Source: Naegleria gruberi
Lineage: Eukaryota
Assembly: GCA_000004985.1 (NCBI GenBank)
Contig: GG738850.1
DNA length: 64,000 bases
Reading direction: 5' to 3' (one strand)
Positions 56,102-64,000 of this stretch are shown here, one piece after another. Under the pieces are notes generated by a model. It saw nothing but the letters and a program-made list of their open reading frames with translations. It made no database searches and was not told the origin of the DNA. The position numbers and the translations under genes were made by a program. Every line of letters starts with the position of its first letter. Positions within the stretch are counted from its first letter, which is position 1.

Positions 56102-59100
56102 ATGCAAATATCATCACGGAATGTGTTTGTTGTGGTATTGTTGGTAATTGGTTTATTGTCCAATAATGTTTATTCCTTTAATGCTTCAGTGTGCCCCACT
56201 TTCAATAGCCAAGCGTGTAATGGTGCCGCCTTATTGAATCCGTGTGCTTCTGGTGGTGAAGAAACAAATTATTGTGACTGTTTTGGATTTGGGAGTGGCG
56301 GGTTTTCAGCCTTTTATGGAGGTGTTGCATGTGAAACCTTTCAATGCTATAAAGTAGACATGCATATTGGAATTGGTCTGTACGACCAATATATTTGTTC
56401 AAATAATGGAGATTGCATTGGACCCAATAGTTGTCAGTGTAATCAAGGTTATACTGGTTACAAATGTCAATACTCTATTGCAGATATTTCTTGTTTTAAC
56501 TTACCCGCAAATAGTTCTACTGTCTGTAGTGGAAAAGGAAAGTGTACACATCCGAATGAATGCCTTTGTAATAAGGGATATGAAGGTTTAAATTGTGAAA
56601 AGTTTAGATGTTATGGTCATTTGAACTCGGATTCGAATGCTTGTAGTGGGAAAGGAAAGTGTATAGATTGGAATGTCTGCGATTGTGACAACGGAAATTC
56701 TGGAAAAAATTGTGAACTAGTGTCCACTGTTGGTAGCTCCATTCAAAGAGTATGTTTTGGAATACCTAACACTAACAATTCGGTCTGCAATAACCGTGGT
56801 GTTTGTGTTGGACCTGATTCCTGTGTATGTAATCCAGGATATTTTGGATCTGAATGTGAACATTCCTTCTGTTTTTCTATTCCTCAAAATGACTCATCTG
56901 TTTGTAATGGCAGAGGCTTTTGTAATGAAAAAGATTCATGTAATTGCCTTTCTCAACTCTCAAATGTTCTGATTTCAGGAAGTGAATGTGAATATTTACA
57001 GTGCAAGGGAACTTTTGGCCAATACTATTTCTCTACAGATAGTACCAATGTATGCTCTGGAAATGGAATTTGCACCCTAAACGGTTGTAACTGTACTGAA
57101 GGGTACTCTGGAGAATTTTGTCAAGATTATTTCTGTGGTGGTGTCCCAAATTACAGTCCATCGTCATGCTCTGGACATGGTAACTGTATTGCTCCAGATG
57201 ATTGTTCTTGCTATACTAATTCAACTCATGGTTTTTGGATAGGATCTGATTGCAGTGTTTGTGATTCATCTCACCATGGATCTGACTGTTTGTCCAGTGT
57301 CAACTGTGACAGATATGAAACTTGTAATGGCCAGGGAAATTGCTCTTCAAATCATACATGCCTTTGTGATGATGGATTCGAGGGAGAATTCTGTGATGAA
57401 TGCTCAAATGATAGATATGGTTGGGATTGTAAGCAGTTTTGTTCAAGAATTTCAAGCTGCTATGGTCACGGTGAGTGTTCCAGAGATGGCCAGGTATGTG
57501 AATGTGATTATTCCCAAAGCACTGGTTTTTGGAAAGGAAATAATTGCTCCTCTTGTGCTGATGGTTTTTTTGGAGACGATTGTTTGACAAAGGTTGGATC
57601 AACCTTTGAGTTTAATTCCCTAGGAAATGAGATTTACTTTGATTTGAATGGTCCTTCAACCTATCTTGGTGGTGTTGTTGATTGTTCAACCCTCTTATCC
57701 TCTTCCTCTTACTCATCTATTGGAAGTTCATTAGCTAAATGTATTTTCAAAACTCCTTTAATTCCATCAAGAATTTCTATAGAGCTTGCAAGCACATCAA
57801 CTATTAAGCCAGGCGACTCCTTGGAGGTTAATTTGAAAGTTTTTGATGCACAACATCTACCAAGATCTCTCTCCACACTCTCATGTTCAGCATCTAATAT
57901 ATCTTCTCCTATTGCTGAAATTGTTTACCACAACACCTTAGTGAGATATTCTGAAAATTTGGTTCTTACAGGAAGAAATAGATTAGGTATTCCTCGTGAA
58001 CGCGTATTGTTCTATGAGTGGACTTTAATTTCAAGTACCTCTTCTTTTAATTCTCTTTCTAGTGTTGTGTCGTCAGGATCAGGTCTAGGAAAATCAGTTC
58101 TCAATATTTCTAACACGGATTTACCAGATAACAATGCATTTGCAATTCAACTTAAAGTGAAACACCCAGACTTTAACTTGTGGAGTAATTATGTAATCGT
58201 TAACTTTACAAAAGAAGATCAACCAATAGTTCAATCACCGTACAAAAAATATGAAGTGTATATATATCCTCCTTTAGACCCCTATTATGTGACAGAGTTT
58301 GTTTTTCCAATCACTGTTCCGTATCAAGTTTTGGAAGATGGTGTTCCAGTGGATACTTCTTCATTTACTGCAATTAGTTGGACATTTGATCCAGATATTC
58401 AAGCAAGTGGGCAGAGTATTTTTACAGTGGATACAACAACAAATGGTGTACTTTCTTTTGATGCAACCATTAGTGAAATGGAAAATACTATTGTCACAGT
58501 TAAATGTGACGTTATAGAAAACAATGTTGTATTAACATCCAGTTCTTTCAAAATCAAATCTGTTGCAGAGTATAAACCTTCTCTCAAAACAAATGAGACA
58601 GATTATGGGGTTTTCTTTAATATTGGATCTTTGAAGGGAATGCCATTACAGCAGAGCTATTGGGAATGTCACGCACCAACACAGCACCAGGGAAAATGTG
58701 AACCTGAAATCGAGGCTTTCTTCAAAGATGCAACTAACAAGAAAAGCGTCTTTATTCCTAATGAATATTTATACAAGTACAAAGTACTTTATTATGCTCG
58801 TGTTTCAATGGTTGTTAATGGGGCTCATTATAAGGGACAAGCGGATGCTTTTGGTAAAAAGGGTTTAGAAATCTTAAAGATTGGAAATGAAGATGTAAAG
58901 CATTATGTCTATTTGAGTAGAACGCAACAAACTAACTACATTTTGTACTATGACAACACAAGACAATCAATGACAAGCCCTCCTTCATATTCAATGTTTG
59001 ATGAGCTTGGAAATAACATTACAGATATTCTTGTTTTGGATGCAACAAACAAACGTATTATAATCAATCCTACCGCAATACCATCTCAATCAACTTTATT

Positions 59101-59674
59101 AACCTTGTCCCTTACTGACACTTATGGAAGCATGATTTATAAGAAAAACCTTCATGCATTTGTTGACATGCTCCCTAAATCAAATTGTACTGTTAAAATT
59201 GCTGAACATCCGGTTACAGTTAGTGTTTTTAATGGAATACTCTACTTTTACAATATTACAGTAGCATGTGTAACTTCTTCAAAATTGCCAACAGTTAAAG
59301 TGTATTTGAAGAACCAAAATACCGAACTATTCGTATGTGATTTTGATCCACTATTGCTTCCAAGTCAATCTTGCTACATTCTACTTCCAGAATTGATTGG
59401 ACCAACAGATGTGTTTGCCAATGTTACTCATGCAACCCAGGAATTGGTTGCCCTATTACCTGTTGCAGAAGTAAGTGAATTGATTCCTATTGGAAGTCTA
59501 AGAGAAAGACAAACAACTCCCTCAGCAGATATTGATTCTCTTCAACAAATGTTCTACCAATATTTTGCCAATCCAAGAGATGTTGAAAACACATCTATGT
59601 TACTTCAAACTCAAATCAAAAAACTGCTCTACTTACACTACCCAGAAAAGGAGCTTTCGTATCCAAATCTCTAA
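56102..59674 (+). CDS. Secreted 1190-aa paralog of the giant EGF/REJ-like family (signal peptide, about 14 EGF-like repeats, REJ/PKD-like module, no TM in this ORF)
   Basis: ATG at 56102, signal MQISSRNVFVVVLLVIGLLSNNVYS; EGF-type Cys spacing; shared post-EGF motif GPSTYLGGVVDCSTLLSSS...VLFYEWTLISSTSS aligning with GPASYTQSKVDCSRLISSS...PLKYYWTIVSSPS in 48679..55723. Confidence 0.75.
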   Translation: MQISSRNVFVVVLLVIGLLSNNVYSFNASVCPTFNSQACNGAALLNPCASGGEETNYCDCFGFGSGGFSAFYGGVACETFQCYKVDMHIGIGLYDQYICSNNGDCIGPNSCQCNQGYTGYKCQYSIADISCFNLPANSSTVCSGKGKCTHPNECLCNKGYEGLNCEKFRCYGHLNSDSNACSGKGKCIDWNVCDCDNGNSGKNCELVSTVGSSIQRVCFGIPNTNNSVCNNRGVCVGPDSCVCNPGYFGSECEHSFCFSIPQNDSSVCNGRGFCNEKDSCNCLSQLSNVLISGSECEYLQCKGTFGQYYFSTDSTNVCSGNGICTLNGCNCTEGYSGEFCQDYFCGGVPNYSPSSCSGHGNCIAPDDCSCYTNSTHGFWIGSDCSVCDSSHHGSDCLSSVNCDRYETCNGQGNCSSNHTCLCDDGFEGEFCDECSNDRYGWDCKQFCSRISSCYGHGECSRDGQVCECDYSQSTGFWKGNNCSSCADGFFGDDCLTKVGSTFEFNSLGNEIYFDLNGPSTYLGGVVDCSTLLSSSSYSSIGSSLAKCIFKTPLIPSRISIELASTSTIKPGDSLEVNLKVFDAQHLPRSLSTLSCSASNISSPIAEIVYHNTLVRYSENLVLTGRNRLGIPRERVLFYEWTLISSTSSFNSLSSVVSSGSGLGKSVLNISNTDLPDNNAFAIQLKVKHPDFNLWSNYVIVNFTKEDQPIVQSPYKKYEVYIYPPLDPYYVTEFVFPITVPYQVLEDGVPVDTSSFTAISWTFDPDIQASGQSIFTVDTTTNGVLSFDATISEMENTIVTVKCDVIENNVVLTSSSFKIKSVAEYKPSLKTNETDYGVFFNIGSLKGMPLQQSYWECHAPTQHQGKCEPEIEAFFKDATNKKSVFIPNEYLYKYKVLYYARVSMVVNGAHYKGQADAFGKKGLEILKIGNEDVKHYVYLSRTQQTNYILYYDNTRQSMTSPPSYSMFDELGNNITDILVLDATNKRIIINPTAIPSQSTLLTLSLTDTYGSMIYKKNLHAFVDMLPKSNCTVKIAEHPVTVSVFNGILYFYNITVACVTSSKLPTVKVYLKNQNTELFVCDFDPLLLPSQSCYILLPELIGPTDVFANVTHATQELVALLPVAEVSELIPIGSLRERQTTPSADIDSLQQMFYQYFANPRDVENTSMLLQTQIKKLLYLHYPEKELSYPNL

Positions 59675-59684
59675 TCATAAAATT

Positions 59685-62600
59685 TTAATTGAATTCATTA
59701 TTGATTTTTCTCTTTCTTGAGAATATTTCTGCATCTCTGGAAACAAATGGAAAAACAGCAAACCAAATCATACACAATAAACAACTAGAAACCAAACACC
59801 ACCCAAGACCTAAACTGAATGCAATCTCATTATTATCACTAACAATACTATCGTCATCATTGAAAGAGAATGGGAATCTGAATATGGTCTCAGTAATCAT
59901 GGTAGAAATCAACATGGCCGAGAGAAGCAGAGGGGCAAAGTATTTGACTAAAAAGCACCAAACCCACAAAACTGTCTGTGTTGCCAAATCAGTGCATTTG
60001 TAAACAAATGTATTCTCAGTGAAAATATTTTCCTCTCCATCTTCATTCTCCTCAGTAGCATACTTTTGAATAATCTTTTGTTTTTTAGCAAGAATGTGGT
60101 TTTTAAATCTCTCAACAGAGAAGAAGGCCGCTCCTTTCCAATATTTCTTTGGGTTGTTTTTCAGTTTTCTGAATGCATGTGTGAGATTAGGGCAGTGAAT
60201 CAAATATTTGAAAAATACCACAAAGTGGGTGGCCATGATTTTACAACGTTTTGTAAATCTTGCACACACAGAGGTGTCTCCCTCCAAAACCATATCAACT
60301 ATTCCCTCCTCTGATGGCTCTATCATTTGAATCATTTCTTCTTGCCATTTTTCATGGTTAGCTGCCAAAGCTTCATTAATCTTGTTAACGATATCCTTCT
60401 CTTCCAATTCACTGCATTGACTTTCAAACATTTTACTTCCAAATGCAAAATATCCAACAACTATACACTCAGCCAATCCCATCAAAACTAGACAATAATT
60501 TGAAATGTAGTGATCCACAATTCTAATCAAGTAGTATCCATTATTAAGAGTGAACGGCAATCCTAAAATGAAGCCAACAAGGCAAACAATAAAAGTTGCC
60601 ACGTTTCTGTTAGTCAACATTTTGTAAGTGAATGGCATGTCTGGTACATTGTCCTCATGAAGCAAATCTTGCTTCTCTGGAGGAAGATTAATAGTCTCCT
60701 TCTTAATAGCCACAGGAGAAGATGAAATCACATTGGATGAATCGATGGTATCCTCCAGTGGTACTTCATGTTGAGCATCAACTGCTTGTTCTGTCATTTC
60801 ATGTTCATTGTGGAAATTCTGCATGTAAATCTTTTGAACATACTTCCAACGTTGAACTTTGAGATTCCACTGCATTGAGAAGTGATCCATCAGGGCACTT
60901 GTTACACATTCCACACAAGCAAAGGCACTATCTAATCCCATTGAAAATATAGTGGCAATCAGTAAGAGAGCAGAAAAGTGAGGAACTGGCAAATAGGAAA
61001 CAGCTTGGAAGTAGACAATAAAAGCCAATCCCAATCCTGAACGAACTGTATCACTAGTAAAGAGCTTGTCAAAATCTGCAAGAGCTGTTTTCAAATAATA
61101 TTATATGAATATTAAGGTAAAAATTAATATTAAAAAAGGTTTGTGAAAAAACTTACCATTCTCACCAAACTTGTCATGAGCCATAACACCCAAAATTGAA
61201 AAGATAGTAAAGCCACTCAAAAAGGCAATAAAGCAATTGGCTGCCACCACAACAACTGAAGCAATGATAATATTTGATTTTCTACTCAAATATGAAGAAT
61301 AGGTAGAGTTGGTTCCATTTCCAACACCAACACTGAAGAATACCTGACCAGCAGCCGCCAACCAAATTTCAGTTTTCAGCAAGACACTGAAATCTGGTTT
61401 GAAAAAGTAGTACAAACCAGAGCTACTTCCCACTTCGAACAATATAGTTCTCAACAAGTAAATGGCCAATAAACAAATTGGCAAAGGTACTGAAATGAAA
61501 ACTACAAATTTGATACTGCTCACACCCTTAAAAACGCACAAAAAGTTGAAAAATACCACAACCAGTAAGCCCAATAAAATTGGCATGGAAACAAAGTCTA
61601 CTCCATAAAAATTCGATGGATAATTGCTTATCAATGTAGTTGGTCCAGTGGATTTTCTCAAAACTACAGAATTGAAGAACTCTTCAGCCTTCCCAATCCA
61701 TGGTAATTCAGCTTGGAATAAGTTTACAAAATAAACACAAGTCCAACTCAGAATTACATTATAATAACTCAAAATTAATAAACTTCCAAAAACTGTCATG
61801 GCCAAACCAACTCCACAAGCTCTTCTATTCCACTTTGAAATGGATAATATGGAAGATCTTCTCGACATGACACCAAGTGAAAATTCCAACAAGGTCAATG
61901 GCAATCCCAAAACAACCAAACAGAAAATGTAAGGAATGAGAAATCCACCACCTCCATACGTATAAACAAGATATGGAAAACGAATCAAATCTCCCAAACC
62001 AACACTCGAACCAATGGCTGCAAATAAAAAGCTAATAACTGATCCAAAATGTTGTCTCTTATCATCTTCCAATCCATTCGATCCATCATCCACAAATTTG
62101 AAACATTTCTCATTGGCAATACTTGCCAAATCCAAAGAACTCGTCTCTGAAACATTATCTGCATAATAATCCATACTAGAAGTGGCAGATAAACTTTCCT
62201 CTTCAGTTGTTGTACCTTCCTCTGATTCGAATGCTTGCTCTTCACTCTCAACTTTTGGACCCAAATCTGAATGTCTATGAATGTGATGAGAAATCTTTGG
62301 CTTGTGATTTGGTTTTCTATGGTGATGTCCATGATGACGATGATGAGAAAGTCCCCTTGTGGCATTAAGTTGTTGTTGCTGATGATGACCACGAAGATTA
62401 TTACGAGAACTTCTTCGAGAGGAATCTCTCTTCACTTCTTCCATCATTCCAGCCTGATGTTCCCTCTCAACATCTTCCATCATGATTGTTTCCTCCAACT
62501 CTTCTGGATGATGATTATGAGTGCCTTGTTGTTCTTCTCCTTCTCCAATCATTCCTCTCTTATCAAAGGCTAGAGATGATAAAGTTGTTGGAGCAGCTCC

Positions 62601-63077
62601 TACTCCGTAATGATGAATGTGTTGGGAGTAGATGGATTTGAGTGCTGAATTATTTACAACTCCAATCCTGTTGCCAATCAATTGGCTATTATCCAAACTT
62701 CTTCTCATATTATTATTGTTAATTATATTTAAATTATTTAAAGTTTTGGAGGGTGGATCCTCTCCACTACTACTACTCATCGATTGTTGTTGTTGTTGAA
62801 TGAGAAGTGTGGATGGAAGTTTGGGCGAAGAGGGTGAATTGTTATTTGTATTAGAAAATTGTTGCTGTTGTGATTGTAAAATTCTGGGTGATGACGATGA
62901 CTGAGAAGAAACTCTCGGAGAAGATGTACCTGAATTATTGTTCATCATTTCCTTCTCAAAATTGCTGTGAAAATCTTCACAATGGTTTGTTTTCAATTTT
63001 TTGGTTGTTGTCCAACAACTGAAAATTTGGTCACAACTCTGAGATGAGAATTGGTTTTGGTTAGTACTTGATTCCAC
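59685..63077 (-). CDS. SLC6/NSS-family Na+-coupled transporter, 2 exons: complement(join(59685..61084,61157..63077)); long His/Gln/Ser-rich N-terminal cytoplasmic extension
   Basis: TM1 signature GSSVGLGDLIRFPYLVYTYGGGGFLIPYIFCLVVLGLPLTLLEFSLGV (cf. [22 protein letters not shown]); GTAAGT...AACAG 72-nt intron, phase 1, links ...DKFGEN|ALADFDKLF; the first ATG is well inside the tracked ORF, whose own start codon is GTG. Confidence 0.8.
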
Positions 63078-63324: not shown

Positions 63325-64000
63325 TTAATTCTTCTTATTGTCTTTAAGGTCTTGATTATTCTTTCCACTTCCAAAGAGTTTTGACCAAATGTTATCATGA
63401 AGAATCCACAATAAGGTTGAGGTGAATTTAAAATAGAGAGCTGCAATGTATGGAGGTTTCATTTTGGATAAATGTGTCACAATCATGACCAATGCAGGGA
63501 AAATAAATAGTGGAATAATGCATGCAGCAAATGAGAATCGTCCTGCATTTCTCAATGAAAGACCACCCACAGGGTTATAAGGTTCCAAAATTAAATTCAA
63601 ATGATCTTGCCAAACCTTTGCAACACCATACTCTCTAGCTCCCTCTCTCAAAATATTCAAATATCTAGCACTTGGCAATGCATCAACAATATCCGGTTGA
63701 ACTGCTTGCAATGCAATTGCATCAATAGTTTGTCCAAACCATGAAGCATCCTCAGATGCCTTTCTATACTTATCTACAAAACCATCATTCGGATAGAATG
63801 GTTCATAAATCTGAGCCTGAACAATAATTTCTCTATATCCCAAATCATCATGTCCATTTCCTCCCTCTGTTCTTCTAATATGATCCATTTGTTCTCTCGT
63901 AATTTTATGCACAACACCATGACAATAACCAATCGATCCAATAGCCTTCTCCGATTTTGAAATTGAAGCAAAAGCAGGTTCAAAGTAAGGAAGACCCTTC
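63325..64000 (-). CDS. 3' part of a gene (5' end outside window) encoding a membrane protein with C-terminal TM (FSFAACIIPLFIFPALVMIVTHL); function unknown
   Basis: Frame open to the window edge; ORF 63101..63289 may be a further 3' exon. Confidence 0.35.
   Translation of the reverse strand, partial: KGLPYFEPAFASISKSEKAIGSIGYCHGVVHKITREQMDHIRRTEGGNGHDDLGYREIIVQAQIYEPFYPNDGFVDKYRKASEDASWFGQTIDAIALQAVQPDIVDALPSARYLNILREGAREYGVAKVWQDHLNLILEPYNPVGGLSLRNAGRFSFAACIIPLFIFPALVMIVTHLSKMKPPYIAALYFKFTSTLLWILHDNIWSKLFGSGKNNQDLKDNKKN

What the first reader, a model, noticed from the sequence alone, without database searches (positions are those of the whole stretch)
59685..63077. SLC6/NSS transporter with a His-rich cytoplasmic N-terminal extension
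A clear SLC6 core is preceded by about 330 aa of Q/S/N-rich sequence containing a dense His cluster (HHRHHGHHHRKPNHKPKISHHIHRH). If the organism is a non-metazoan protist, a neurotransmitter-transporter-family gene is itself notable. The His-rich tail could bind metals or act as a pH sensor.
Basis: partly seen in the sequence, partly recalled or inferred. Interest (0 to 1): 0.5.

Follow-up and report, generated by a model that had tools for sequence, protein, structure and literature searches.

The report
Naegleria NSS transporter, His-rich tail
This is a real, already annotated sodium-symporter (NSS/SLC6-family) gene of the amoeba Naegleria gruberi; it is mostly ordinary, but its lineage carries a histidine-rich disordered N-terminal tail and an unusual aspartate in the first sodium site that probably removes the need for chloride.

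Summary
On the minus strand there is a two-exon gene (ATG 62948, 72-nt intron 61156-61085, stop 59685) encoding 1063 aa. It has a 297-aa disordered N-tail with a 12-His-in-30-aa cluster, followed by a complete 12-TM NSS core (Pfam SNF 4.8e-81; fold TM-score about 0.8 to NET, GAT1 and dDAT).

The first 1012 aa are identical to the public 'sodium-dependent transporter [Naegleria gruberi]', so the gene and its family are already known. NSS genes are common in protists and prokaryotes, so its presence in a protist is not notable, and it is not a contaminant. Orthologs with the same architecture exist in N. fowleri, N. lovaniensis and Willaertia.

The Na2 site and the gates are intact. The TM1 Na1 asparagine is Asp (D320) and the chloride-site serine is Ala (A575) in all four orthologs. 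No other of 297 sampled relatives has Asp there. I infer Na+-coupled, Cl--independent transport of an amino-acid-like substrate.

His enrichment of the tail recurs in a second Naegleria NSS paralog and exceeds the local background, so it is probably maintained. Its role (metal, pH or lipid binding) is untested. The public model wrongly truncates TM12.

The parts
61157..62948 (-). Coding exon 1 (aa 1-597 plus the first base of codon 598): N-tail and TM1-TM7
   Evidence: ORF; translation; ATG and N-terminus match the orthologs; the 1012-aa prefix is identical to public protein P0001
61085..61156 (-). Intron, 72 nt, GTAAGT...ACAG, phase 1
   Evidence: the spliced reading ENALADFDKLF aligns with orthologs and with GAT1
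59685..61084 (-). Coding exon 2 (rest of codon 598 to aa 1063, plus stop): EL4, TM8-TM12, and the IL4 and IL5 insertions
   Evidence: the C-terminal TM12 (LGWxLVxSCLLCMIWFAVFPFV) is conserved in N. fowleri, N. lovaniensis and Willaertia
62058..62948 (-). N-terminal tail, aa 1-297, cytoplasmic by family topology, S/N/Q/E/H-rich and predicted disordered
   Evidence: Composition; AF2 pLDDT below 50 for 1-160 and 178-295; no Pfam or NCBIfam domain
62403..62498 (-). Only conserved sequence block of the tail, aa 151-182 (LEETIMMEDVEREHQAGMMEEVKRDSSRRSSR), predicted helix 157-182
   Evidence: Invariant residues E152 E153 M157 E158 V160 E161 R162 H164 E170 in four species; helix in the AF2 model at pLDDT about 55
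62271..62393 (-). His/Arg/Lys cluster, aa 186-226 (RGHHQQQQLNATRGLSHHRHHGHHHRKPNHKPKISHHIHRH)
   Evidence: 12 His in 30 aa, 0 of 20000 shuffles reach this; mixed CAT/CAC codons interspersed with other codons, so not a pure repeat; the same position is His/basic-rich in N. fowleri and N. lovaniensis, weaker in Willaertia
62124..62258 (-). Acidic Ser/Thr-rich tract, aa 231-275 (PKVESEEQAFESEEGTTTEEESLSATSS...)
   Evidence: Read from the translation; partly alignable in N. lovaniensis and Willaertia
61989..61991 (-). Codon GAT = Asp320 in the unwound part of TM1 (GLGD LIRFPY). This is the position of the Na1 ligand LeuT N27 / GAT1 N66 / SERT N101
   Evidence: Mapping from the GAT1 alignment; invariant in four orthologs; Asn in 275 of 286 other relatives with a residue there, Asp in none
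61224..61226 (-). Codon for Ala575 in TM7. This is the position of the Cl- ligand GAT1 S331 / SERT S372 and of LeuT E290
   Evidence: alignment; invariant in orthologs; Ser in most relatives. In full-length relatives Ala occurs only together with an Asp at one of the two Na1 Asn positions
60927..60932 (-). Codons for Asp649-Ser650 in TM8 (GLDS), side-chain ligands of the Na2 site (GAT1 D395, S396)
   Evidence: alignment; invariant in orthologs; D in 130 and S in 148 of 168 sequences
60621..60875 (-). IL4 insertion, aa 668-752, between TM8 and TM9. Its first part continues TM8 as a long basic helix up to about aa 703
   Evidence: GAT1 joins residues 413 and 415 where the query spans 667-753; AF2 helix 632-703 with pLDDT 84-89; no Pfam domain
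59991..60437 (-). IL5 insertion, aa 814-962, between TM10 and TM11, containing the conserved block FVVFFKYLIxxPN...YWK...FFSVERFKNHI
   Evidence: Hydropathy; conservation; helical but low-confidence in AF2; no Pfam domain
59810..59843 (-). 34-nt stretch that the public gene model splices out. It is most likely coding (aa 1012-1023)
   Evidence: Removing it reproduces P0001 exactly and shifts the frame so that TM12 is lost. Read-through gives a TM12 conserved in three other species
62949..63077 (-).
   Evidence: It begins at a GTG after a stop; orthologs and the public model start at the position of ATG 62948

Best explanation
What it is. The locus is the single-copy Naegleria gruberi gene for a 1063-aa member of the neurotransmitter:sodium symporter family (NSS, TC 2.A.22, SLC6-like). 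It has a 12-TM LeuT-fold secondary transporter core. All of its extra mass is cytoplasmic: a 297-aa N-tail, an 85-aa IL4 insertion and a 150-aa IL5 insertion.

Shown:
- Family membership and fold.
- An intact Na2 site: G313 and V316 carbonyl positions, M646, D649, S650.
- An intact extracellular gate (R323-D788) and intracellular gate (R298, D664).
- Gly317 at the LeuT G24 position and Tyr396 at the LeuT Y108 position. This is the signature of carriers whose substrate brings its own carboxylate.

Inferred:
- It carries out Na+-coupled uptake of an amino acid or similar zwitterion. The polar residues N544, T546 and N547 in TM6b suggest a small or polar substrate.
- The Na1 shell keeps S315, S539 and N571, but the TM1 Asn is replaced by Asp320, and the chloride-site Ser is replaced by Ala575. 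I infer that the fixed carboxylate of D320 supplies the negative charge next to Na1. In other members this charge comes from Cl- (GAT1, SERT), from a TM7 Glu/Asp (LeuT E290) or from a TM7 Asn-to-Asp change (KAAT1 D338, B0AT1/2). Transport would then be Cl--independent and might have altered cation selectivity.
- The N-tail is an intrinsically disordered regulatory region. It has one conserved acidic helix (aa 157-182), then a His/Arg/Lys cluster (aa 186-226), then an acidic Ser/Thr tract. Its most likely role is control of trafficking, turnover or activity. The His cluster may give pH- or metal-dependent binding.
For: Family and fold:
- Pfam SNF 273.5 bits.
- 104 solved SLC6/NSS sequences matched, best GAT1 at 1.8e-51.
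- AF2 core pLDDT 85-96.
- Foldseek TM-score about 0.8, normalised to target, against NET, GlyT1, dDAT and GAT1.
- 12 hydrophobic segments.

Organism and orthologs:
-.

Site mapping:
- Mapping uses the GAT1 alignment. GAT1 ligand identities are taken from PMC10352132: Na1 = A61, N66, S295, N327; Cl- = Y86, Q291, S295, S331; the S331E mutant is Cl--independent.
- All mapped residues are invariant in the four orthologs.

D320 and A575:
- Asp at the TM1 position occurs only in the four heterolobosean orthologs among 301 aligned sequences.
- Ala at the Cl- Ser position occurs in 22 full-length sequences, always together with an Asp at one of the two Na1 Asn positions (N-D-A 17, D-N-A 4, A-D-A 1).

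Literature precedents:
- SERT N101A/C gives Cl--independent transport and lets Ca2+ replace Na+ (PMC4607855).
- The TM7 Asn-to-Asp change in KAAT1 and B0AT1/2 goes with weak or absent Cl- dependence and K+ acceptance (PMC8310414).

Tail:
- Disordered in AF2.
- His clustering has 0 of 20000 shuffles reaching it.
- His content is 7-12.5 % in Naegleria orthologs and 16 % in the N. fowleri paralog B tail. The median for 57 other NSS tails is 2.1 % and the window background is 1.5-1.85 %.
Against: - No functional data exist for this protein or any ortholog. Two literature searches found nothing.
- The substrate is not identifiable from sequence.
- Y340, Q535 and S539, three of the four Cl- ligands, are retained, so residual Cl- binding is possible.
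- An Asp in the first shell of Na1, together with a substrate carboxylate, could over-stabilise or change the bound cation, or be protonated. The coupling ion is therefore not certain.
- Coordinates of the AF2 model were not available, so distances from D320 to Na1 and to the Cl- site were not measured.
- The Ala/Asp association is not corrected for phylogeny.
- The sample of relatives covers only the roughly 300 most similar clusters out of more than 10000.
- The A and B tails share composition, not alignable sequence. Mutational drift from poly-Q/N tracts could contribute to the His content.
Confidence: 0.7

Rival explanations
1. The His-rich cluster is a functionally neutral low-complexity sequence. 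It would be a by-product of slippage and mutation in Q/N-rich tracts of a disordered tail. The tail as a whole would only be a spacer or generic trafficking region, and the transporter would otherwise be ordinary.
For: - The tail is predicted disordered and has no domain.
- The cluster adjoins a Q-run (HHQQQQ).
- N. fowleri and N. lovaniensis have additional His runs at non-homologous tail positions, and Willaertia has only a weak cluster.
- The A and B paralog tails are not alignable.
Against: - His clustering is far above a shuffle of the tail's own composition.
- S/N/Q/T-rich stretches of other genes in the window have only 1.5 % His.
- His-rich tails recur in both NSS paralog families of Naegleria but not in 50 or more other NSS tails.
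- The cluster sits at a fixed position right after the conserved helix in three species.
- The codons are mixed and interrupted, so it is not a recent repeat expansion.
Confidence: 0.35
2. D320 changes the coupling ion rather than just replacing Cl-. The protein would be H+-coupled, or would accept K+ or Ca2+ at site 1. That would suit a freshwater or soil amoeba with little external Na+.
For: - A carboxylate replaces a neutral ligand in the Na1 shell.
- SERT N101A lets Ca2+ substitute for Na+ (PMC4607855).
- KAAT1's Asp at the other Na1 Asn position goes with K+ acceptance (PMC8310414).
- The second heterolobosean paralog also has a non-canonical Na1 site, with Ser and Thr in place of both Asn.
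Against: - The Na2 site, the one thought to drive the conformational cycle, is fully canonical.
- As far as I know, no NSS member has been shown to be H+-symporting.
- Nothing here measures ion dependence.
Confidence: 0.15
3. The protein is a non-transporting nutrient sensor (a 'transceptor'). It would be analogous to yeast Ssy1 or Snf3/Rgt2, which are permease homologs distinguished by long cytoplasmic extensions that signal. The long tail and loop insertions would recruit signalling partners.
For: - About 530 aa of lineage-specific cytoplasmic sequence surrounds a conserved core.
- Several otherwise near-invariant core residues are changed in this clade only: W301F, N320D, S410L, G480K, M547N, F635S, F640I, D785R.
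Against: - Gate residues, the Na2 site and the unwound TM1/TM6 motifs are all conserved under purifying selection across four species. This is what is expected of a working carrier.
- Long tails also occur in bona fide SLC6 transporters, for example the roughly 200-aa N-tail of GlyT2 (own knowledge).
- No signalling domain was detected.
Confidence: 0.1
4. The gene is a contaminant, or a recent transfer from a metazoan or bacterium, rather than a native Naegleria gene.
For: The core is more similar to about 490-aa prokaryotic NSS proteins (36-39 % identity, 230-260 bits) than to metazoan SLC6 (about 30 %). An ancient prokaryotic origin of the protist clade therefore cannot be excluded.
Against: - The G+C of the locus (0.35-0.37) lies within the range of the window (0.31-0.38).
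- It has a spliceosomal intron and Naegleria-type low-complexity extensions.
- The first 1012 aa are identical to the reference N. gruberi protein on a 707-kb contig.
- Orthologs exist in N. fowleri, N. lovaniensis and Willaertia.
- In an NJ tree the orthologs form a 100 % clade. That clade lies inside a 92 % clade made up only of heterolobosean, metagenomic and two other protist-source (MMETSP transcript, Logan assembly) sequences.
Confidence: 0.02

Closest known systems
Metazoan Na+/Cl--dependent SLC6 transporters (GAT1/SLC6A1, SERT, DAT, GlyT1/2)
   Same: - The 12-TM LeuT fold (Foldseek TM about 0.8).
- The TM1 G-x-G-x...RFPY and TM6 QxFFSxGxG motifs.
- The Na2 site with the eukaryote-type GLDS aspartate.
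- Both gates.
- Three of four Cl- ligands.
- GlyT2 also has a long N-tail of about 200 aa (own knowledge).
   Different: - Only about 30 % identity.
- The Na1 Asn (GAT1 N66) is Asp.
- The Cl- Ser (GAT1 S331) is Ala.
- EL2 is short, with no cysteine pair and no N-x-S/T sequon (read from the sequence).
- IL4 and IL5 carry 85-aa and 150-aa insertions.
- The N-tail is His-rich.
Cl--independent or weakly dependent SLC6 nutrient amino-acid transporters (KAAT1/CAATCH1, B0AT1/SLC6A19, B0AT2/SLC6A15)
   Same: A carboxylate replaces one of the two Asn ligands of Na1. In 17 sampled relatives of that type the Cl- Ser is also Ala, as it is here. Reduced or absent Cl- dependence and altered cation selectivity are documented for this type (PMC8310414).
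   Different: In those proteins the Asp is in TM7 (KAAT1 D338, the GAT1 N327 position). Here TM7 keeps Asn571 and the Asp is in TM1. That arrangement was not seen in any of the 297 other relatives examined.
Prokaryotic NSS (LeuT, Tyt1, TnaT, and the ~490-aa archaeal/cyanobacterial group such as P0213 from a Woesearchaeote)
   Same: - Highest core similarity outside protists (36-39 % identity).
- A short EL2.
- Near-identical TM1 context (FLFAAIGSxVGLG).
- LeuT-type proteins also use a built-in carboxylate (E290) instead of Cl- (PMC6829555).
   Different: - The prokaryotic proteins lack the tail and the loop insertions.
- The closest group has the canonical N/N/S triad.
- LeuT's carboxylate is at the TM7+4 position, where this protein has Ala.
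Second heterolobosean NSS paralog family (N. fowleri FDP41_013020 = P0174, N. lovaniensis P0196, Willaertia P0025/P0172, Acrasis kona P0199)
   Same: - It falls in the same 92 %-supported clade.
- It has an IL5 insertion with a related block.
- In Naegleria species it also has His-rich N-tails: 16 % His, 11 in 30 aa.
- In Naegleria and Willaertia its Na1 site is non-canonical.
   Different: - Only about 40 % identity in the core.
- In Naegleria and Willaertia the Na1 Asn positions are Ser (TM1) and Thr (TM7), and the Cl- Ser is retained. Acrasis kona P0199 instead has Asn (TM1) and Glu (TM7) with the Ser retained.
- No long IL4 helix.
- No N. gruberi member was found in the database.
His-rich cytosolic loops or tails of metal transporters (ZIP/IRT1, CDF/ZnT/MTP1)
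   Same: Dense, disordered, cytosolic His clusters attached to a membrane transporter. In those families they bind Zn2+ or other metals and act as sensors or regulators (own knowledge).
   Different: The transport core here is NSS, not a metal carrier. There is no (HX)n periodicity, and the His residues are mixed with Arg and Lys. Metal binding is untested. This is a resemblance only.

Membership tests
NSS / SLC6 family (Pfam PF00209 SNF; TC 2.A.22) | Significant match to the family profile over the transmembrane core | tested here: met
   PF00209 at 4.8e-81, 273.5 bits against a cut-off of 27. NCBIfam NF037979 at 52.8 bits against a cut-off of 50. 104 solved NSS/SLC6 sequences matched.
NSS / SLC6 family (Pfam PF00209 SNF; TC 2.A.22) | 12-TM LeuT fold | tested here: met
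   12 hydrophobic segments. AF2 core pLDDT 85-96. Foldseek TM-score 0.74-0.82, normalised to target, against NET, GlyT1, dDAT, GAT1 and TauT. This is model-based, not experimental.
NSS / SLC6 family (Pfam PF00209 SNF; TC 2.A.22) | Na2 site ligands (LeuT G20, V23, A351, T354, S355 = GAT1 G59, I62, L392, D395, S396) | tested here: met
   G313, V316, M646, D649 and S650, from the alignment; G313, D649 and S650 are invariant in the four orthologs, V316 and M646 are backbone-carbonyl positions with conservative changes.
NSS / SLC6 family (Pfam PF00209 SNF; TC 2.A.22) | Gate residues: extracellular Arg(TM1)-Asp(TM10) and Tyr(TM3)/Phe(TM6); intracellular Arg(N-term)-Asp(TM8) | tested here: met
   R323, D788, Y396, F538, R298 and D664 are present and conserved. 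The Trp that follows the N-terminal Arg is Phe301 in this clade.
NSS / SLC6 family (Pfam PF00209 SNF; TC 2.A.22) | Canonical Na1 shell (LeuT A22, N27, T254, N286 = GAT1 A61, N66, S295, N327) | tested here: inconclusive
   S315, S539 and N571 fit the canonical shell. The TM1 Asn is Asp320. An oxygen ligand is retained but a charge is added. Whether Na+ still binds there cannot be decided from sequence.
Na+/Cl--dependent neurotransmitter-transporter subgroup (metazoan SLC6 proper) | Complete Cl- site (GAT1 Y86, Q291, S295, S331) | tested here: not met
   Y340, Q535 and S539 are present, but S331 corresponds to Ala575, invariant in all four orthologs.
Na+/Cl--dependent neurotransmitter-transporter subgroup (metazoan SLC6 proper) | Large glycosylated EL2 with a conserved disulfide | tested here: not met
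   EL2 (about aa 410-455) has no Cys and no N-x-S/T sequon (sequence). It aligns better with the short EL2 of prokaryotic NSS proteins.
Na+/Cl--dependent neurotransmitter-transporter subgroup (metazoan SLC6 proper) | Phylogenetic placement within the metazoan SLC6 radiation | tested here: not met
   It groups at 92 % NJ bootstrap with heterolobosean and other protist sequences. Identity to metazoan members is about 30 %, against 36-39 % to prokaryotic NSS proteins.
Biogenic-amine transporters (SERT/DAT/NET type) | Asp at the LeuT G24 position (SERT D98), which replaces the substrate carboxylate | tested here: not met
   The position is Gly317, invariant. This is the amino-acid-type signature.
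Metal-binding His-rich regulatory loops (ZIP/CDF type) | Demonstrated metal binding by the His cluster, and a metal-transporting core | not testable with these tools
   Only composition could be examined. The core is NSS, so this is at most an analogy.

The most novel reading that the evidence does not exclude
The Naegleria/Willaertia NSS clade may represent a third natural way of supplying the negative charge next to Na1. The known solutions are bound Cl-, a TM7 Glu/Asp at the LeuT E290 position, and a TM7 Asn-to-Asp change. Here the charge would come from a TM1 carboxylate (D320), with the Cl- serine correspondingly lost (A575). This would give a Cl--independent symporter, possibly H+-antiporting or with altered cation selectivity. 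Its His/Arg/Lys-rich disordered tail, shared by composition with the second Naegleria paralog, would act as a pH- or metal-responsive regulator.
Probability: 0.3. Interest if true: 0.5.

Novelty: new variant of a known kind. Interest (0 to 1): 0.3.

Why it matters
The gene itself is already in the public N. gruberi annotation, and the family is one of the best-studied transporter families. The main result is therefore that the finding is largely ordinary.

What is new is modest but concrete:
- A natural Asn-to-Asp replacement at the TM1 Na1 ligand, paired with loss of the Cl- serine, conserved across four species. Mutagenesis at this position in SERT (N101) is known to break Cl- coupling. These amoebal proteins are a ready-made natural test of how charge balance around Na1 sets Cl- and cation dependence in NSS carriers.
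- His-rich cytoplasmic tails recur in two NSS paralog families of one genus. That makes the idea of a regulatory metal or pH switch on an NSS carrier directly testable.
- The public gene model loses TM12 and should be corrected.

N. fowleri, the brain-eating amoeba, has the ortholog, so any distinctive pharmacology of this carrier could have practical interest.

Tried and rejected
- Contaminant or recent HGT: rejected. Evidence is an identical 1012-aa prefix to the reference protein, an intron, orthologs in three genomes, and a protist clade at 92 % bootstrap.
- Alternative splice acceptor at 61076: rejected. The 72-nt intron gives the ortholog-conserved reading.
- Start at GTG 63077: rejected in favour of ATG 62948.
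- The public model's 34-nt intron (59843-59810): rejected, because it removes the conserved TM12.
- Known domains in the N-tail, IL4 or IL5: none in Pfam or NCBIfam, even at E = 1.
- A positive residue compensating D320, as K102 does for D338 in KAAT1: none found among the clade-specific substitutions. K480 is cytoplasmic and R785 is in the extracellular vestibule.
- A second NSS gene in the window: none.
- Literature on Naegleria NSS or on His-rich SLC6 tails: nothing relevant.
- Naming the nearest relatives: most are unnamed metagenomic proteins.
- Deep placement of the protist clade relative to prokaryotes and metazoa: not resolved by NJ.
- Acidic dileucine sorting motif in EETIMM: considered by eye and dropped, because it is not conserved in Willaertia.
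- Operon-style context: not applicable in a eukaryote. The neighbours are unrelated.


Full report
**1. What is in the sequence**

- The interval 59685-63077 contains two long minus-strand ORFs in the same frame modulo 3: 61101-63077 and 59685-61094.
- In the DNA, exon 1 ends ...GAG AAT G|GTAAGT and exon 2 begins ...AAAACAG|CT CTT GCA. Removing the 72 nt at 61156-61085 gives one continuous 1063-codon reading frame.
- The junction peptide (HDKFGENALADFDKLFTSD) aligns without a break to GAT1. It also aligns to the N. fowleri and N. lovaniensis orthologs, which read HEKFGANASADFDKLFTND.
- The ORF extends upstream to a GTG at 63077. The first ATG (62948, MMNNNSGTSSPR) matches the N-termini of the orthologs and of the public protein. 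The CDS is therefore 62948-59685, and the tail is 297 aa rather than about 330.

**2.

- Pfam SNF (PF00209) matches at 4.8e-81, 273.5 bits against a cut-off of 27.
- 104 distinct solved SLC6/NSS chains match. The best is GAT1 at 1.8e-51.
- A hydropathy scan gives the expected 12 segments.
- The tail is S/N/E/Q/H-rich.
- Its densest 30-aa window has 12 His. None of 20000 shuffles of the tail's own composition reach that value, and the next-best long ORF in the 64-kb window has 6.
- The cluster is encoded by mixed CAT/CAC codons interrupted by Arg, Lys, Pro, Asn, Gly, Ile and Ser codons. It is therefore not a simple repeat.
- Background His is 1.85 % in the window's long ORFs and 1.5 % in their S/N/Q/T-rich stretches. 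The tail has 7.1 %.

**3. Organism and prior annotation**

- The first 1012 aa are identical to the public protein 'sodium-dependent transporter [Naegleria gruberi]' (P0001, 1024 aa, on a 707-kb contig). The gene and its family assignment are therefore already public.
- Orthologs at 61 % identity exist in N. fowleri (1064 aa) and N. lovaniensis (1119 aa). A third, at 45 %, is in Willaertia magna (786 aa).
- The public N. gruberi model differs only at the C-terminus. It removes a 34-nt 'intron' (59843-59810), which shifts the frame and ends the protein before TM12. I reproduced that model exactly by deleting those 34 nt.
- Read-through gives LGLGWCLVSSCLLCMIWFAVFPFV. This segment is nearly invariant in the three other species, so the public model is most likely wrong at that point.

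**4. Anatomy**

- The AlphaFold2 model was built from a 19-sequence alignment. The membrane core has pLDDT 85-96.
- Residues 1-295 have pLDDT below 50, apart from a helix at 157-182 with pLDDT about 55.
- That helix is the only conserved sequence block of the tail (EETIMMEDVEREHQAG...). Its residues E152, E153, M157, E158, V160, E161, R162, H164 and E170 are invariant in four species.
- Directly after the helix comes the His/Arg/Lys cluster (aa 186-226). The same position is His/basic-rich in N. fowleri (HHYHHGARQTHRHSSRHHHYSHKHRKHYLHPRH) and N. lovaniensis, and weaker in Willaertia.
- An acidic Ser/Thr-rich tract follows (aa 231-275).
- Two further lineage-specific cytoplasmic insertions exist:
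  - IL4 (aa 668-752). Its first part is modelled as a confident continuation of TM8 up to about residue 703 (pLDDT 84-89).
  - IL5 (aa 814-962). It is helical but modelled with low confidence.
- Neither the tail nor the loops match any Pfam or NCBIfam family.
- Foldseek against the PDB returns only SLC6 transporters, with TM-scores of 0.74-0.82 normalised to the target.

**5. Ion and substrate sites**

The mapping uses the GAT1 alignment. The GAT1 ligand lists come from the rGAT1 cryo-EM paper (PMC10352132).

| Site | GAT1 residue | This protein |
|---|---|---|
| Na2 | G59 | G313 |
| Na2 | I62 | V316 |
| Na2 | L392 | M646 |
| Na2 | D395 | D649 |
| Na2 | S396 | S650 |
| Na1 | A61 | S315 |
| Na1 | N66 | D320 |
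| Na1 | S295 | S539 |
| Na1 | N327 | N571 |
| Cl- | Y86 | Y340 |
| Cl- | Q291 | Q535 |
| Cl- | S295 | S539 |
| Cl- | S331 | A575 |

- Na2 is intact. Na1 has one change (N66 to D320). The Cl- site has one change (S331 to A575).
- The gate residues R323/D788, Y396/F538 and R298/D664 are present.
- All side-chain ligand and gate residues are invariant in the four orthologs; V316 and M646 (backbone positions) and R323 (Lys in Willaertia) vary conservatively.
- Gly317 occupies the position that is Asp in biogenic-amine transporters, and Tyr396 is kept. This is the signature of carriers whose substrate brings a carboxylate. That interpretation is established knowledge, summarised in PMC6829555.
- TM6b is unusually polar (N544, T546, N547).

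**6. How unusual is D320/A575?**

- I aligned 301 sequences. They were the window protein; the best 150 representatives of an exhaustive search of 1.84 billion cluster representatives (which found 10437 family members at E <= 0.001); the hits; and some cluster members.
- The triad (TM1 Asn position, TM7 Asn position, TM7+4) was distributed as follows:

| Triad | Count |
|---|---|
| N-N-S | 204 |
| N-D-S | 36 |
| N-D-A | 17 |
| N-N-E/D (LeuT type) | 6 |
| S-T-S (second heterolobosean paralog) | 5 |
| D-N-A (the four orthologs of this gene) | 4 |

- Ala at the Cl- serine position occurs in 22 full-length sequences. In every one it is accompanied by an Asp at one of the two Na1 Asn positions. The two apparent exceptions are N-terminally truncated fragments of orthologs of this gene that lack TM1.
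- Literature supports the functional reading:
  - The Cl- ion sits where LeuT has E290 (PMC6829555).
  - GAT1 S331E is Cl--independent (PMC10352132).
  - SERT N101A/C is Cl--independent and accepts Ca2+ (PMC4607855).
  - The TM7 Asn-to-Asp variant of KAAT1/CAATCH1 and B0AT1/2 goes with weak or absent Cl- dependence and altered cation selectivity (PMC8310414).
- I therefore infer that D320 is a built-in counter-charge that makes this carrier Cl--independent. This is an inference. No distances could be measured, and three of the four Cl- ligands remain.
- Other clade-specific changes at otherwise conserved positions are W301F, S410L, G480K, L504F, M547N, F635S, F640I and D785R. None of them is an obvious charge partner for D320.

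**7. Phylogenetic placement**

- Heterolobosea have a second NSS paralog family, seen in N. fowleri P0174, N. lovaniensis P0196, Willaertia P0025/P0172 and Acrasis kona P0199. No N. gruberi member of it was returned, and there is none in this window.
- In a bootstrapped NJ tree of 54 sequences:
  - the four orthologs form a 100 % clade;
  - together with paralog B, three metagenomic proteins and two other protist sequences, they form a 92 % clade;
  - deeper relationships are unresolved.
- By BLAST, the core is 36-39 % identical (230-260 bits) to a group of about 490-aa NSS proteins from Woesearchaeota, cyanobacteria, Chlamydiales and others. It is only about 30 % identical (130-180 bits) to metazoan SLC6.
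- This is therefore not a 'neurotransmitter transporter' in the metazoan sense. It is a member of a protist NSS lineage with prokaryote-like features, including a short EL2 without a disulfide.
- Contamination is excluded. An ancient prokaryotic origin cannot be decided here.

**8. The His-rich tail in context**

- Among 57 relatives with N-tails of at least 40 aa, the median His content is 2.1 %.
- The top four tails all belong to Naegleria proteins:
  - paralog A from three species, at 7.1-12.5 % His with 12-14 His per 30 aa;
  - N. fowleri paralog B, at 16.1 % His with 11 per 30 aa.
- Both Willaertia paralogs have 7.1-7.5 %.
- The N. lovaniensis B tail is also visibly His-rich.
- The A and B tails are not alignable, so what is conserved is composition rather than sequence.
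- This favours a maintained property, such as metal, pH or anionic-lipid binding, or interaction with the adjacent acidic tract. It does not prove one, and drift from Q/N runs remains a live alternative.
- No literature on His-rich SLC6 tails was found.

**9. Verdict**

- Its family assignment is right.
- Its 'notable in a protist' argument is not supported.
- Its metal/pH idea is untested.
- The gene is already annotated, so overall interest is low to moderate.
- The parts that go beyond the annotation are:
  - the TM1 Asp/TM7 Ala ion-site variant, specific to Naegleria and Willaertia among about 300 relatives;
  - the recurrence of His-rich tails in two paralogs;
  - the large cytoplasmic insertions;
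  - a correction to the public gene model.

Noticed in passing
window 59810-59843 (minus strand): The public N. gruberi protein model (P0001, 1024 aa) splices out a 34-nt 'intron' here. This shifts the frame and deletes TM12. Read-through gives a C-terminus conserved in N. fowleri, N. lovaniensis and Willaertia, so the database model looks mis-annotated.
   Followed up: yes
window 59674-59685: The convergent neighbour, a 1190-aa EGF/teneurin-type repeat protein (56102-59674, plus strand; Pfam EGF_2, EGF_Teneurin), ends only 10 bp from the stop codon of the NSS gene. The two 3' UTRs must therefore overlap or be extremely short.
   Followed up: partly
P0174, P0196, P0025, P0172, P0199 (not in the window): A second heterolobosean NSS paralog family exists. 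In Naegleria and Willaertia both Na1 asparagines are replaced (TM1 Ser, TM7 Thr), and in Acrasis kona the TM7 Asn is Glu. No N. gruberi member was returned by the database search, which suggests loss or a missed gene in N. gruberi.
   Followed up: partly
window about 60832-60873 (aa 669-682, WNLKVQRWKYVQKI): The confidently modelled cytoplasmic helical extension of TM8 contains a basic amphipathic stretch. By eye it fits the 1-5-8-14 calmodulin-binding pattern (W, V, W, I; net charge +4). It is conserved in N. fowleri and N. lovaniensis (WNLKINRWKYVRKV) but not in Willaertia. This is a motif match only.
   Followed up: no
P0213, P0216, P0236, P0239, P0257 and similar (not in the window): A group of about 490-aa NSS proteins from DPANN archaea, cyanobacteria (Moorena), Chlamydiales and others carries the 'eukaryotic' N-N-S triad with a Ser at the Cl- position. 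This group is closer to the amoebal proteins than metazoan SLC6 is, which bears on the origin of eukaryotic SLC6.
   Followed up: partly
window 63325-63912 (minus strand): The upstream ORF of 195 aa, with a hydrophobic C-terminal part, has no Pfam match. It may be one exon of a larger gene that runs off the window.
   Followed up: partly
P0024, P0031, P0032, P0042, P0200-P0207 (not in the window): Many metazoan database entries of 1000-1570 aa match the NSS core in 4-6 separate stretches. These are apparently tandem or fused SLC6 gene models. They inflate full-sequence scores and could mislead ranking by E-value.
   Followed up: no
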